Below are positions 56,808 through 61,478 of a DNA stretch of 64,000 nt, piece after piece; positions within the stretch are counted from its first letter, which is position 1; every line of letters begins with the position of its first letter. A model generated the notes under the pieces. The model was not told the origin of the DNA. It saw only the letters and a list, made by a program, of their open reading frames with translations, and ran no database searches. Both the position numbers and the translations under genes were made by a program. This DNA is from a virus. Its lineage: Duplodnaviria; Caudoviricetes. The DNA lies in the IMG/VR virus record IMGVR_UViG_3300027759_000043; one strand, given 5' to 3'.

Positions 56808-56837
56808 TTGACACCGCCACCTGATTCCTTGTATAAT
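56808..56837 (+). promoter_or_regulatory. sigma70-type promoter
   Basis: TTGACA-N18-TATAAT. Confidence 0.7.
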
Positions 56838-56842
56838 GTACG

Positions 56843-57030
56843 TGTGCATGAGCAAGGAGATGGTGGCGATCTAATGGCATGAGCGGGGTGATTGAACGCC
56901 CGGGCCCGACATAGCCGTGGCAGGTAGATATAATGCCCACGAGGTTGAGACACTGACCAAGACTCAGAAATGAGTCAAAACCGACTGATACTCGGTGTAT
57001 GCTCAAGTTGGAATTATCAGTGAAAGGAAG
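56843..57030 (+). ncRNA. Candidate structured leader/ncRNA carrying micro-ORFs
   Basis: ~190 nt between the promoter and the next gene; stems GACTCA-GAAA-TGAGTC, ACCGA/TCGGT, CGTGG/CCACG. Confidence 0.4.
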
Positions 57031-57035
57031 TTTAA

Positions 57036-57353
57036 ATGTCTGTTAAAATAGAAGCCCCTGACGCCATGCTTCCGTCCCTTGACTCTCTTAAAACAACGGC
57101 TTTGCCCATGCACAAATTATATTTCGAATTGTCAAGTGTGGACACATGGTATGCTATCATGCGAGAAGCACGGGCACAGTTTGGCAAAAACTGGCGTAGT
57201 CAAAGTCATGTTAGACGCAGACTAGAACATGCCAGCCTATGGACCATAGGTGGTTGTTCAGAACGTGTGTGGTTTGAAGTACCAGATCCCAAGTTTGGTA
57301 CCTGGATAGCAATTAAACATGCTGTTAGACAGGTCGAACCATCCGGTAAATAA
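57036..57353 (+). CDS. Hypothetical protein
   Basis: SD AAGGA; 105 aa. Confidence 0.7.
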   Translation: MSVKIEAPDAMLPSLDSLKTTALPMHKLYFELSSVDTWYAIMREARAQFGKNWRSQSHVRRRLEHASLWTIGGCSERVWFEVPDPKFGTWIAIKHAVRQVEPSGK

Positions 57354-57359
57354 TACTCT

Positions 57360-58931
57360 ATGATATTTGGTTTCAGCATCCTGGCCACAGCAATCTTACT
57401 CAGTTGTGTGGCCGCTTATTACTCTGTGGCAGGTCTTACCGCCATCTTCTCCGCGGCAACCATCCCTGTGATCATCATGGGTGGCAGCCTCGAACTTGGC
57501 AAGATTGTGGCCACTGTTTGGTTGCACAACAATTGGCGACGTGCTGGATTCCTGTTCAAAGCATATCTAGTGCCTGCGGTGGCATTCCTAATGTTACTGA
57601 CATCAATGGGAATTTTTGGCTATCTCTCCAAGGCCCATTCAGATCAAAGTCTAGTTTCAGGCGATGCAGTAGCAAAAGTAGCAATCTATGATGAAAAGAT
57701 CAAAATATCTCGTGACAATATTGAAGCCGACCGCAAGGCACTTAAACAGATGGATGAGGCTGTGGACCAAGTTATGGGCCGATCAGCAGATGAAAAAGGT
57801 GCCGACAAAGCAGTTGCAATACGAAGAGGCCAGCAACGAGAACGGGCTAGGATACTTGCTGACATCGAAACCGAACAGAAAAAGATTACTAATCTTAATG
57901 AAGAGCGGGCACCACTAGCGGCCGAGTTCCGCAAGGTTGAAAGCGAAGTTGGGCCTATCAAATACATTGCCGCACTTGTATATGGAGACAATCCTGACTC
58001 TAATGTGCTAGAGCGAGCAGTACGTTTAGTAATCATTATGATTGTGTTGGTATTTGACCCACTGGCCTTGACTTTGATCCTGGCAGCCAACAAACAATTT
58101 CAATGGGCCAGAGAAGGCACCGGAGGCTTTGTGCATGACGAGCCCCGGTACGAGCCTGATAATGGTCCGCTAACTGAAAATCAAATTGAACAACTAAAAG
58201 AATCAGTGCCAGAGCCGCCTGATGATCCTATACCTTGTTACAAGTGTGGTACCTCGTTAGTTGACGCTCCGGGTATTGGACTGTTCTGCCCCAACAAAGA
58301 ATGTGACGTTATAGATAATGTCAAAGGTGAGGAACCTGTTGAATTTGAATCAATTGAAATTGAATACAAGTTTTTAGACGAACATCATGAACCTGATCTC
58401 CATGTATACGATGATGAACGCTTGGTATCAAAATTTGACAAGATGCAAAATTTAGAACGACCAGGAGACTACATAACACCACCTGACGAGACTGATGCAG
58501 AAAAAGAAGCCAAGCGGCTGTGGAAAGCCGAACACCCTGATGGAACTGTAAAAGAACAAAGAAGATTGCACGAAGTAGGCGCCATAGACACATTACCGTG
58601 GCAGGGCTATATCAATCTTCAAGCAGACAATGATGGTAGTATTTCAAGTACCGGTCGATTGCTGGGCTTTGGTATCAAGTTCCCAGAGAATCCAGCCAAA
58701 GGTGATTCATTTATTAGGGTAGATCAAATGCCCAGTGCCCTGTACAAATACAATGGCACCAAGTGGATTGAGGTTGACAAAGGGCTCAGTGACCAGTATG
58801 CTTATGACACGGCCTATATTGATCATTTGATTGAAAAACTCACTACCGGTGAGTATGATCCTGAATTATTAAACGAAGCAGAAAGAGAACAAGTGGCACA
58901 ACGCTTACAAACCAACACAAAAGGTGCATGA
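57360..58931 (+). CDS. Membrane-anchored coiled-coil protein with a Zn ribbon and acidic C-terminal region
   Basis: N-terminal TMs, long heptads, further TM, CYKC...CPNKEC. Confidence 0.75.
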   Translation: MIFGFSILATAILLSCVAAYYSVAGLTAIFSAATIPVIIMGGSLELGKIVATVWLHNNWRRAGFLFKAYLVPAVAFLMLLTSMGIFGYLSKAHSDQSLVSGDAVAKVAIYDEKIKISRDNIEADRKALKQMDEAVDQVMGRSADEKGADKAVAIRRGQQRERARILADIETEQKKITNLNEERAPLAAEFRKVESEVGPIKYIAALVYGDNPDSNVLERAVRLVIIMIVLVFDPLALTLILAANKQFQWAREGTGGFVHDEPRYEPDNGPLTENQIEQLKESVPEPPDDPIPCYKCGTSLVDAPGIGLFCPNKECDVIDNVKGEEPVEFESIEIEYKFLDEHHEPDLHVYDDERLVSKFDKMQNLERPGDYITPPDETDAEKEAKRLWKAEHPDGTVKEQRRLHEVGAIDTLPWQGYINLQADNDGSISSTGRLLGFGIKFPENPAKGDSFIRVDQMPSALYKYNGTKWIEVDKGLSDQYAYDTAYIDHLIEKLTTGEYDPELLNEAEREQVAQRLQTNTKGA

Positions 58932-60139
58932 TGGCATCAGATTTACACAACACCTGCAGTTTCTGCGGCAAGCACAAAGACTCGGTAAAAAAACTCATAG
59001 TAGGCGAAAAAGTAGGCATTTGTAATGAGTGCGTGGATTTTTGTCAAGGCTTGTTAATTGACGAAACCCCTCAAGACAGCACAACTGCTCCAGTAACCCC
59101 TAGAAAACTAGATCCTGTTGTACTCAAAGAATATTTAGATCAGTACGTGATTGGACAAGACTCGGCCAAGATCATGTTGAGTGTGGCCATTGTGAATCAC
59201 TACAAACGTATCAACAAGACCACAAACGAACCTGAACTAGAAAAAGCCAATGTGCTTATGTTGGGGCCTACAGGTTCGGGCAAGACCTTGTTGGCCAAGA
59301 GTGTGGCACGTTATCTTGATGTACCATTTGCTATTGCTGATGCCACTAGTATTACAGAAGCAGGCTATGTGGGCGATGATGTGGAAAGTCTTATCACAAG
59401 ATTGTATACTGCGGCTGATGGTGACATAAACAGAACACAACGTGGCATTATTTTTGTGGACGAGATTGACAAAATTGCTCGCAAAGGTGAGAGTGCCAGT
59501 ATCACTAGAGATGTGTCAGGTGAAGGAGTACAACAGGCCTTGCTCAAGATGGTAGAAGGTACTGTGTGTCGTATACCAGCAGGTGGCGGCCGGAAACACC
59601 CATCAGGGGACATGATTGAAATCAACACACGCAACATCTTGTTTATTGCAGGTGGTGCATTTGTGGGCCTGGATTCAATTGTTAAAAATCGTGTGCAAGG
59701 TACCAGTATCGGCTTTGGTGCCAAGGTAGAAAGCGATGCAGACACTAACCTTGCACTTACCACACCTGACGACTTGGTCAAGTATGGAATGATTCCAGAA
59801 TTTGTGGGACGTTTTCCTAACTGGGTTGGTCTACAAGAACTTTCTAAATCAGATCTAGTACACATTCTTACTGGTGTAAAAAACAACTTTGTTGATCAAT
59901 ATAAATGGTTGTTTGCTGAAGATGGTGTAGAGTTACAGTTTACAGACCCAGCATTGGATACTATTGCTGAACGAACTCTACTTAGCAAAACAGGTGCTCG
60001 AGGACTGCACAGCGAACTAGAACGTGTGCTGATGCCACACATGTACAACCTCAAACGCTACCCTGGCATGGGAATAAAGTGCGTGGAAATTGGCCCTGCT
60101 TTGGTAAATATTCCTATAGCACTAGAGGGCACAAATTGA
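58928..60139 (+). CDS. clpX: ClpX AAA+ unfoldase
   Basis: CSFCGK...CNEC Zn domain, [20 protein letters not shown] loop, GARGL. Confidence 0.97.
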
Positions 60140-60357
60140 AATTACACGGAAGATCAGTATTGGTAACAGATGGCAACGTTGAGCGAGCACTGCGCAAATT
60201 CAAAAAGAAAATTGCAGAATCTAATCTTTTAAATGATCTCCGTGACCGTGAATTTTACGAAAAACCCACTACTGAACGCAAACGCAAAAAGTCTGCAGCC
60301 AAGAATCGTTGGCGCAAGAAACTAGCGGCGCAACAACTGCCCCAAAAACTCTACTGA
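60136..60357 (+). CDS. rpsU: Ribosomal protein bS21
   Basis: [11 protein letters not shown]...[15 protein letters not shown]; TTG start with SD GAGG and TAAATA upstream. Confidence 0.92.
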
Positions 60358-60599
60358 TGTTTATCGAATTCCAATTGCTGGATCAACCAGGAATGGCATT
60401 ACATCTGATAGAACAAGAACTAGACCAATGGGGCGAACGTTATAATATTCCCTACACCAGCAAAACAGTCAAGTACACACATCGAGTGTGTTTTGAAGAA
60501 GACAAACTGTATGATTTTTTTGTAATGAGTTGGAATCCTCGAGGAATTGATTACCTAAATCGGTACGTGGTTGTATCTGACCGAAATAATAGACAATAA
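60357..60599 (+). CDS. Small hypothetical protein
   Basis: TGATG-coupled to rpsU. Confidence 0.6.
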   Translation: MFIEFQLLDQPGMALHLIEQELDQWGERYNIPYTSKTVKYTHRVCFEEDKLYDFFVMSWNPRGIDYLNRYVVVSDRNNRQ

Positions 60600-60678
60600 A
60601 TAAGATTTCGTGTATAAATACACATGTAGTGCCGATGGTCGGGCTACAAGTCATAACTTGCTTAATAGGAGAAAAAAC

Positions 60679-61110
60679 ATGACAAAAATCACATCTTTAG
60701 ATCTCACCCCCTTCTACCGTAACACAATTGGCATGGACCGCCTGTTTGACAGGATTGTCAGTCAATTTGATCATGCTACGCAGACCAACTATCCACCCTA
60801 TGACATTGTCAAAACAGCCGAAGATAGTTACGAAATTCGTGTGGCAGTGGCCGGCTTTGGCCAAGGTGAAGTTGACGTGACTTTCCATGAAGGTCAGTTG
60901 GTTATCACAGGCGAAAAGCACACGGAAGAAAACGTGAATTATCTACATCACGGCATCAGTGCTCGTAAATTTACACGCAGTTTCCAACTGGCGGAGTATG
61001 TGGAAGTGAAGTCAGCAATTGCCCAGGATGGCATTCTCACAGTATGCTTGGAGCGTACTGTGCCAGAAACAGCCAAGCCAAAGACTATTGCTATCACCTA
61101 CACTTCCTAA
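60679..61110 (+). CDS. ibpA: Small heat-shock protein (HSP20/IbpA-like)
   Basis: IGMDRLFD, YPPYDI, AVAGF, HGISARKFTRSFQL, DGIL. Confidence 0.95.
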   Translation: MTKITSLDLTPFYRNTIGMDRLFDRIVSQFDHATQTNYPPYDIVKTAEDSYEIRVAVAGFGQGEVDVTFHEGQLVITGEKHTEENVNYLHHGISARKFTRSFQLAEYVEVKSAIAQDGILTVCLERTVPETAKPKTIAITYTS

Positions 61111-61169
61111 TATAATAGTGTAAATACAGTAGCGGGATGGTCCCGCTACTGAACAAACAAGGACTCGAA

Positions 61170-61478
61170 ATGTCGCAAGCAGAAACTATTGTAGCAACAA
61201 GAACAAAAACCGCCGTCAAAGAACCAAGTCTGTATCGGGTAATTTACCTCAACGACAACACAACCACAATGGAATTTGTTGTGGAAACCTTGATAGAATT
61301 CTTTGGCTATACAGAAGAAACAGCCGCACAAATTACTGTGGACATACATGACGCAGGATCAGCCACAGTGGCAGTATTGCCATTTGAAATTGCCGAACAA
61401 AAGGGCGGTGAAGTCACGCTGAGTGCTAGAGCACAGAATTTCCCACTACAGGTCAGAATTGAACCTGATGTGACCTAA
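61170..61478 (+). CDS. clpS: ClpS N-degron adaptor
   Basis: YRVIYLNDNTTTMEFV, IHDAG, FPL. Confidence 0.9.
   Translation: MSQAETIVATRTKTAVKEPSLYRVIYLNDNTTTMEFVVETLIEFFGYTEETAAQITVDIHDAGSATVAVLPFEIAEQKGGEVTLSARAQNFPLQVRIEPDVT

What the first reader, a model, noticed from the sequence alone, without database searches (positions are those of the whole stretch)
56838..57038. Relay of five coupled micro-ORFs inside a structured 190-nt leader
Seen: after TTGACA-N18-TATAAT the gap is tiled almost without interruption by MSKEMVAI* (56848-56874), MA* (56874-56882, TAATG overlap), MSGVIERPGPT* (56879-56914, ATGA overlap), GTG-AGRYNAHEVETLTKTQK* (56917-56973, 2-nt gap) and MSQNRLILGVCSSWNYQ* (56970-57023, ATGA overlap), ending just before the SD of 57036. 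The same stretch folds locally: GACTCA-GAAA-TGAGTC, ACCGA-N7-TCGGT, CGTGG..CCACG, GGGTG/CGCCC. GCATGAGC occurs twice (56846, 56877) and either copy can pair with TGCTCA near 57000. Known: lambda bar minigenes and attenuator uORFs act through ribosome/peptidyl-tRNA effects. Inference: a ribosome-relay sensor or RNA switch upstream of the ClpX/bS21 block, or a stand-alone ncRNA. Chance tiling cannot be excluded by eye.
Basis: partly seen in the sequence, partly recalled or inferred. Interest (0 to 1): 0.68.

Follow-up and report, generated by a model that had tools for sequence, protein, structure and literature searches.

The report
Large self-pairing jumbo phage RNA
The five tiny reading frames are a coincidence; what is really there is an uncatalogued, intricately folded RNA of about 266 bases in giant lake phages that covers the start of the next gene, seems to build up as a free RNA, and probably pairs with copies of itself.

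Summary
The five micro-ORFs exist as written but are chance: all five survive in 1 of 15 homologs at 85% identity or more and in 0 of 62 more distant ones, and shuffles give five-ORF chains 6% of the time. The real feature is a structured RNA longer than the finding, 56846-57111, behind a conserved sigma70 promoter in freshwater jumbo phages. It has 12 helices including a pseudoknot; 49 of 66 pairs show double changes. It encloses the Shine-Dalgarno site and first 25 codons of a 105-aa gene heading the ClpX/bS21 operon. No Rfam match. This scan already reported the family on other genomes as a translational leader. New here: (1) a loop hexamer stays self-complementary while switching sequence, including at adjacent bases, the signature of RNA-RNA kissing between molecules; (2) in one lake metatranscriptome a deep contig ends in sequencing adapter at 57105, suggesting a discrete RNA; (3) the RNA was lost at least twice while the operon stayed. 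Best reading (0.5): a stable, dimerising RNA cut from the operon's 5' end, whose folding competes with translation of the first gene. Partner and function are untested.

The parts
56808..56837 (+). sigma70-type promoter
   Evidence: 12/12 consensus; a -10 box lies just before the RNA in every homolog checked
56846..57111 (+). Whole structured RNA (pairing can extend to 56844/57113)
   Evidence: Covariation; model R2 built on the short class finds the long class at 56-102 bits
56844..56857 (+). P1 5' strand; pairs with 57100-57113 and closes the RNA
   Evidence: 9 of 12 pairs with double changes; pair 56851:57106 exceeds the whole tree-based null
56863..56873 (+). 5' strands of helix A (with 56934-56940, one bulged pyrimidine at 56936) and helix B (with 56925-56929)
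   Evidence: B: 5 of 5 pairs with double changes; 56867:56935 and 56872:56926 exceed the null
56874..56918 (+). Hairpin C with a large loop
56899..56904 (+). Self-complementary hexamer in the loop of hairpin C; predicted intermolecular kissing site
   Evidence: Palindromic hexamer in the loop of 55/79 homologs, 11.7 expected; adjacent central bases CG 27, UA 6, UG 3, other 2; the UA form arose 6 times on the RNA tree
56919..56922 (+). Pseudoknot strand; pairs with 57000-57003
   Evidence: three pairs 100% paired, fourth AU/UA change
56947..56950 (+). Helix G; pairs with 57084-57087 in the coding region
   Evidence: 100% paired in 79 sequences; 56948:57086 is CG, AU or UA
56951..57022 (+). Helix D arm enclosing hairpin E (56961-56976), conserved A4 (56977-56980), hairpin F (56980-56996) and the pseudoknot 3' strand
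57026..57041 (+). Helix H: pairs the Shine-Dalgarno GGA with codon 2; start codon 57036-57038 in its loop
   Evidence: 100% paired, AU/UA and GC/AU changes
57042..57083 (+). Helix I (57042-57046 with 57079-57083) and hairpin K (57051-57072), which holds the second in-frame ATG at 57066 and a conserved C-N-C-U loop
57036..57353 (+). 105-aa protein of no named family; codons 1-25 lie inside the RNA; residues 26-100 form a small alpha/beta domain rich in Trp, Arg and Lys
   Evidence: No Pfam or PHROG hit for the window protein; model pLDDT 80, N-terminus below 50; only generic ferredoxin/ACT-like matches, Z up to 6.9
57360..61478 (+). Downstream block: 523-aa unknown protein, ClpX, bS21, 96-aa ORF, Hsp20, ClpS
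   Evidence: Pfam; the 523-aa gene follows the 105-aa gene in all loci with enough flank

Best explanation
One promoter makes a transcript with two fates. If a ribosome loads on the start site inside the RNA before the last third is transcribed, it melts helices H, I, K, G and P1 and the transcript serves as mRNA for the 105-aa gene and the ClpX/bS21 operon. If the RNA folds first, the ribosome-binding site and 25 codons are locked away, the untranslated tail is removed, and a stable ~266-nt RNA closed by P1 remains. That RNA pairs with a second copy through the palindromic loop of hairpin C and most likely acts as a dimeric scaffold for an operon product (first guess the 105-aa protein, second bS21), which would give feedback control of the operon. 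Shown: the fold, its overlap with a retained start codon, the palindrome covariation. Hinted: the discrete RNA. Inferred: dimer, trimming route, partner, feedback.
For: Fold: 91.5% of cells paired, 49/66 pairs with double changes, slid controls 30-43%; holds across both classes. Translation starts inside the RNA: an in-frame ATG is kept in 121/121; the second ATG is lost in 17, always where an upstream one exists, and kept in all 37 without one. Codon choice is frozen in the overlap (top-codon share 0.83 vs 0.58). Kissing loop; the same adjacent-base criterion supports cross-chain pairs in OLE and GOLLD (10.1101/2024.12.08.627333). Discrete RNA: in run X6 a contig stops at 57105 and goes on as Illumina adapter, and the single contig over 57057-57063 has depth 320. 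39 positions are at least 95% conserved over 79 sequences, about half of them unpaired.
Against: The RNA end rests on assembled contigs of one study; in runs X4 and X7 low-depth contigs run from the RNA on to about 57225. About 30% of homologs lack the palindrome. The RNA always sits on the same gene, as a pure cis element would. The protein keeps its conserved residues, and bS21 is kept, in phages without the RNA, so neither needs it. No binding or regulation was tested.
Confidence: 0.5

Rival explanations
1. A purely cis-acting translational operator or riboswitch. A protein (the 105-aa product, bS21) or a small ligand stabilises the fold and shuts off initiation; the free fragment is only a decay product and the palindrome is secondary.
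For: Strict 5' linkage to one gene in scans that did not use the gene; SD and start codons lie in covarying helices; lineages without the RNA mostly have the -10 box directly before the ATG and keep the operon. Known models: E. coli alpha-operon/S4 and rpsO/S15 operators, T4 gene 32 leader (own knowledge).
Against: Does not explain a self-complementary loop that switched sequence repeatedly, nor a long stem joining both ends; far larger than these operators' binding sites (own knowledge).
Confidence: 0.3
2. A ribozyme or other trans-acting RNA machine whose overlap with the gene only ties RNA and protein supply together (for example self-processing near P1, or action on host RNA).
For: Size, pseudoknot, four-way junction, a bulged-pyrimidine helix and many invariant unpaired bases; possible discrete RNA.
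Against: No match to any Rfam ribozyme even at E 10; helix order does not fit RNase P or group I cores (sequence inspection); lost repeatedly without a copy elsewhere in a 91% complete genome.
Confidence: 0.12
3. The first reader's ribosome relay of five coupled micro-ORFs.
For: The ORFs are there; a chain this long and this complete occurs in 1.7% of shuffles.
Against: All five kept in 1/15 close and 0/62 distant homologs; one-base insertions break ORF1 and ORF3 in near-identical relatives; ORF5's start is kept in 3/77. The ATG/GTG triplets that persist lie in helices P1, C and PK.
Confidence: 0.02
4. The palindrome is a DNA site (protein binding or methylation) or a tiny intramolecular loop, not an RNA-RNA contact.
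For: Six-base palindromes are typical DNA recognition sites (own knowledge); outer positions could pair within one molecule.
Against: The sequence changes among at least five hexamers and only symmetry is kept; intermediates are U-G wobbles, which suit RNA; the two central bases are adjacent.
Confidence: 0.06

Closest known systems
OLE, GOLLD and ROOL RNAs (large ornate homo-oligomeric RNAs; 10.1101/2024.12.08.627333)
   Same: Complex covarying fold with pseudoknot; GOLLD and ROOL are phage-borne; palindromic loops that covary at adjacent bases (OLE L9.3, GOLLD L21a). OLE binds bS21 (PMC12054373), and this RNA heads a bS21 operon.
   Different: About 266 nt against 600-800; no Rfam match; overlaps a ribosome-binding site and 25 codons; no tRNA genes in the window.
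raiA motif / ModT RNA (PMC11706538)
   Same: Mid-sized, highly structured RNA next to a translation-related gene that proved to be an abundant, stable, trans-acting RNA.
   Different: No Rfam match; raiA is a monomer with variable distance and orientation to its neighbours, whereas this RNA is fused into one gene.
Autogenous translational operators overlapping the initiation region (E. coli alpha-operon/S4, rpsO/S15, T4 gene 32)
   Same: Fold includes SD, start codon and early codons of the first gene of an operon with a ribosomal protein.
   Different: Larger, ends joined by a 12-14 bp stem, carries a probable kissing loop; no repressor shown; no Rfam match.
phi29 prohead RNA and retroviral dimer-initiation loops
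   Same: Viral RNAs that join copies through loop-loop pairing; the long-class loop is a purine-flanked hexamer palindrome like the HIV-1 site (own knowledge).
   Different: No sequence or model match; no link to packaging genes seen here.
6S RNA (ssrS-ygfA transcript)
   Same: Stable RNA processed from the 5' end of an mRNA (own knowledge).
   Different: Multi-branched with pseudoknot, not a rod with central bubble; overlaps the coding region.

Membership tests
Any Rfam 15 family (riboswitches, ribozymes, RNase P, SRP, 6S, tmRNA, OLE, ROOL, GOLLD, raiA, pRNA, r-leaders) | Score at or near the family's covariance model cut-off | tested here: not met
   No hit at gathering level in the window; only chance hits at E up to 10 on the full RNA and on divergent homologs
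Translationally coupled uORF relay / attenuator peptides / lambda bar minigenes | Conserved start, stop and junction geometry | tested here: not met
Translationally coupled uORF relay / attenuator peptides / lambda bar minigenes | Ribosome occupancy and start-codon-dependent effect | not testable with these tools
   needs Ribo-seq or reporters
Homo-oligomeric ornate RNAs (OLE/GOLLD/ROOL-like kind) | Extensive covarying multi-helix fold with pseudoknot | tested here: met
Homo-oligomeric ornate RNAs (OLE/GOLLD/ROOL-like kind) | Palindromic loop covarying at adjacent bases | tested here: met
   (about 70% of homologs)
Homo-oligomeric ornate RNAs (OLE/GOLLD/ROOL-like kind) | Accumulates as a discrete RNA | tested here: inconclusive
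   adapter-ended contig at 57105 in one run; read-through contigs in two others
Homo-oligomeric ornate RNAs (OLE/GOLLD/ROOL-like kind) | Measured oligomer | not testable with these tools
   needs mass photometry or cryo-EM
Autogenous translational operator | Always 5' of the same gene, fold covers SD and start codon | tested here: met
Autogenous translational operator | Operon product binds the leader and represses | not testable with these tools
   protein is basic with a generic ferredoxin-like fold, which shows no function
bS21-binding RNA of the OLE P6 type | Conserved SD/anti-SD mimic duplex | tested here: inconclusive
   K loop has an anti-SD-like C-N-C-U with three conserved bases but no conserved partner strand; bS21 occurs with and without the RNA
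RNase P RNA | P4 pseudoknot with CR I before CR V, plus P2/P3 | tested here: not met
   helix A has a similar bulged-U sequence but reversed strand order and no P2/P3 equivalent; no Rfam hit
tmRNA / tRNA-like | Acceptor stem, T arm, CCA | tested here: not met
   ARAGORN finds none

The most novel reading that the evidence does not exclude
A new class of homo-oligomeric phage RNA that is carved out of the first 25 codons of its own operon's mRNA, so that every transcript becomes either message or RNA particle, and that captures an operon product (the 105-aa protein or phage bS21) to steer host translation or proteolysis during infection.
Probability: 0.3. Interest if true: 0.9.

Novelty: new variant of a known kind. 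Interest (0 to 1): 0.74.

Why it matters
Large, ornate RNA classes are rare, and those known from phages (GOLLD, ROOL) have no assigned function. This one is small enough to make and solve, comes with more than 120 natural variants, ready-made compensatory mutations, a predicted dimer site and a genetic neighbourhood (ClpX, bS21, Hsp20, ClpS) that suggests what to test. If it is both a translational gate and a stable oligomer it joins two kinds of RNA usually treated apart, and it offers a handle on the open question of how phages control and use their own ribosomal protein bS21 (PMC9723584).

Tried and rejected
Rfam at gathering and E-value level on the window and 11 homolog loci: nothing. 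BLAST of RNA and protein against 50,697 GenBank phages: no match, so no cultured model was found. Single-sequence folding is uninformative (z -0.18 for 191 nt, -1.67 for 270 nt) and its MFE differs from the comparative fold. Recalled resemblances to the M-box J1/2 module, RNase P P4, group I P7, SRP Alu and cobalamin B12 box were dropped: the bases concerned pair in other helices and no model scores. One exact-pattern scan of 185,579 prokaryote genomes gave 65 hits, 64 chance; the one real hit (L316, a Haliscomenobacter MAG contig) is the same phage gene block, so no cellular copy was seen, but one pattern is a weak search. Fold searches of the protein gave only generic matches. Model R1 was built with a mistyped structure and not used; R2 replaced it. 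The protein tree is the quick one and poorly resolved. A weak covariation 57062:57099 has no neighbours and was rejected. Literature searches found no description; the 29-151 nt candidates of PMC10690425 could include a fragment, but its supplements are not held. No complex prediction was run, as RNA is not accepted.

Full report
Setting. The window is part of a large freshwater phage genome: DNA ligase, Bax1-I, ClpX, bS21, Hsp20 and ClpS genes; close relatives in IMG/VR reach 316-364 kb. The finding lies between the Bax1-I gene (ends 56779) and a 105-aa ORF (57036-57353), behind a perfect sigma70 promoter at 56808-56837.

Observation. They are not a conserved feature. Among 15 homologs at 85% identity or more only one keeps all five with the same stops; among 62 more distant ones none keeps more than two; ORF5's start is kept in 3 of 77. 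One-base insertions in near-identical relatives shift ORF1 and ORF3. Dinucleotide shuffles give chains of five in 6.4% and chains that are also this complete in 1.7%, unremarkable for a feature picked from 64 kb. The triplets that do persist sit in helices.

What is conserved. Loci fetched with the 105-aa protein carry a related sequence right after a -10 box. Mutual-information analysis of 86 homologs showed that the strongest partner of the 5' end lies inside the coding region (56851 with 57106), so the RNA spans about 56846-57111. A 66-pair structure on a plain MAFFT alignment of 45 sequences gives 91.5% paired cells, 49 pairs with changes on both sides, 0 of 500 shuffles as high, and 30-43% paired when partners are slid. 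My own tree-based null (substitutions reshuffled within branches) is exceeded outright by pairs in helices G, P1, B and A. A covariance model from the short class finds a longer class (about 290-305 nt) at 56-102 bits end to end, and the pairs hold over all 79 (that alignment is fitted to the model). The fold: P1 joins both ends; helices A, B and hairpin C form a first domain; a four-way junction (G, D, H, I) forms a second, with hairpins E, F and K; a 4-bp pseudoknot (56919-56922 with 57000-57003) links the domains. Thirty-nine positions are at least 95% conserved across both classes, about half unpaired. Nothing in Rfam 15 matches.

Relation to the gene. In two pattern scans that ignored the gene, the genuine RNA hits I inspected all had this gene directly downstream (output partly cut). 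Translation starts inside the RNA: all 121 full-length homologs keep an in-frame ATG there; the second ATG (57066) is lost in 17, always where the upstream one exists, and is kept in all 37 that lack it. In the long class the codon at the RNA's 3' end is not ATG, so there is no alternative start outside. The SD is paired with codon 2 in helix H. Synonymous choice is frozen in codons 1-25, and this part of the protein is predicted unfolded. Inference: fold and translation exclude each other. Fourteen gene homologs lack the RNA; most start about 20 codons later, directly behind a -10 box, and keep the downstream gene order. Two sit inside RNA-bearing clades, so the RNA was lost at least twice (quick tree). 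A 91% complete genome of this type has no copy elsewhere. The gene is single-copy, and bS21 is present with and without the RNA.

Signs that it is more than a leader. First, the loop of hairpin C holds a Watson-Crick palindromic hexamer in 55 of 79 homologs against 11.7 expected from loop shuffles; loops E, F and H show no such excess, and K a smaller one (23 vs 13). The hexamer switches among CCCGGG, CCUAGG, ACCGGU, UCCGGA and CUCGAG. Its two central, adjacent bases are CG 27, UA 6, UG 3, other 2; the UA form arises six separate times on the RNA tree. Adjacent bases cannot pair within one chain; the same argument supports cross-chain kissing loops seen by cryo-EM in OLE and GOLLD (10.1101/2024.12.08.627333). 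Many short-class loops carry a second, also variable palindrome. Second, of four freshwater metatranscriptomes laid on the region, run X6 has a contig that stops at 57105 and continues as Illumina adapter, six bases inside the P1 3' strand, and the one contig covering 57057-57063 has depth 320. That fits a discrete RNA ending at P1, but it is one study and assembled contigs; X4 and X7 have low-depth contigs that continue to about 57225, as expected for read-through mRNA or DNA. There is no U-tract after P1, so a 3' end there would come from trimming (inference).

Mechanism. Best supported (0.5): a transcript with two fates, message if a ribosome loads first, stable dimerising RNA if it folds first, with an operon product as likely partner and feedback on the operon as likely outcome. 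The 105-aa protein is basic and aromatic with a generic ferredoxin/ACT-like fold, compatible with RNA binding but no proof; its core residues persist without the RNA. bS21 is the second candidate because OLE binds it through an SD/anti-SD mimic (PMC12054373), but here only an anti-SD-like loop is conserved. Rivals: a pure cis operator or riboswitch (0.3), a ribozyme or trans-acting machine (0.12), a non-RNA role for the palindrome (0.06), the micro-ORF relay (0.02).

Comparison and novelty. It works like the ornate oligomeric RNAs in fold and loop symmetry and like the alpha-operon and S15 operators in covering the initiation region, but it belongs to none of these families by model search. 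No paper describing it was found. Earlier agents of this scan reported the same family on other genomes as a translational leader of about 270 nt, looked up after I had reached the same extent; their notes as shown do not mention the palindrome, the transcript end or the losses. Verdict: micro-ORF relay not real; uncatalogued structured RNA real beyond reasonable doubt; function open but directly testable. Interest 0.74.

Noticed in passing
window 60623-60684 (+); also L049 6089-6155, L053 6066-6133: ROSE_3-like hairpins ending at the Hsp20 start codon (60679): E 0.00029 in a 161-nt search, 27.9 bits, below the gathering score of 43. Possible phage RNA thermometer.
   Followed up: partly
window 58774-58802 and 58831-58859 (+): Two promoter-like sites (10/12) inside the 523-aa gene just ahead of clpX; clpX and bS21 may have their own promoter, which would limit the RNA's control over them.
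   Followed up: no
L316 (NZ_JBBAKG010000057.1): The whole phage block with the RNA lies in a Haliscomenobacter MAG contig; probably mis-binned phage DNA, at most a weak host lead.
   Followed up: partly
window 57360-58931: 523-aa protein with hydrophobic N-terminus and coiled-coil-like middle; only a weak PHROG hit (phrog_11591, virion structural protein, residues 416-480). Always follows the 105-aa gene.
   Followed up: partly
L101, L107, L108, L110, L237: These RNAs carry an extra 13-14 nt hairpin inserted just after P1.
   Followed up: no
L056, L065, L103, L106, L167, L277: A reduced form of the RNA (226-240 nt) with a short hairpin C and no palindrome; a natural control for the dimer test.
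   Followed up: partly
L133, L140, L141, L143, L145, L146, L251: Gene homologs without the RNA look leaderless: start codon about 6-8 nt after the -10 box.
   Followed up: partly
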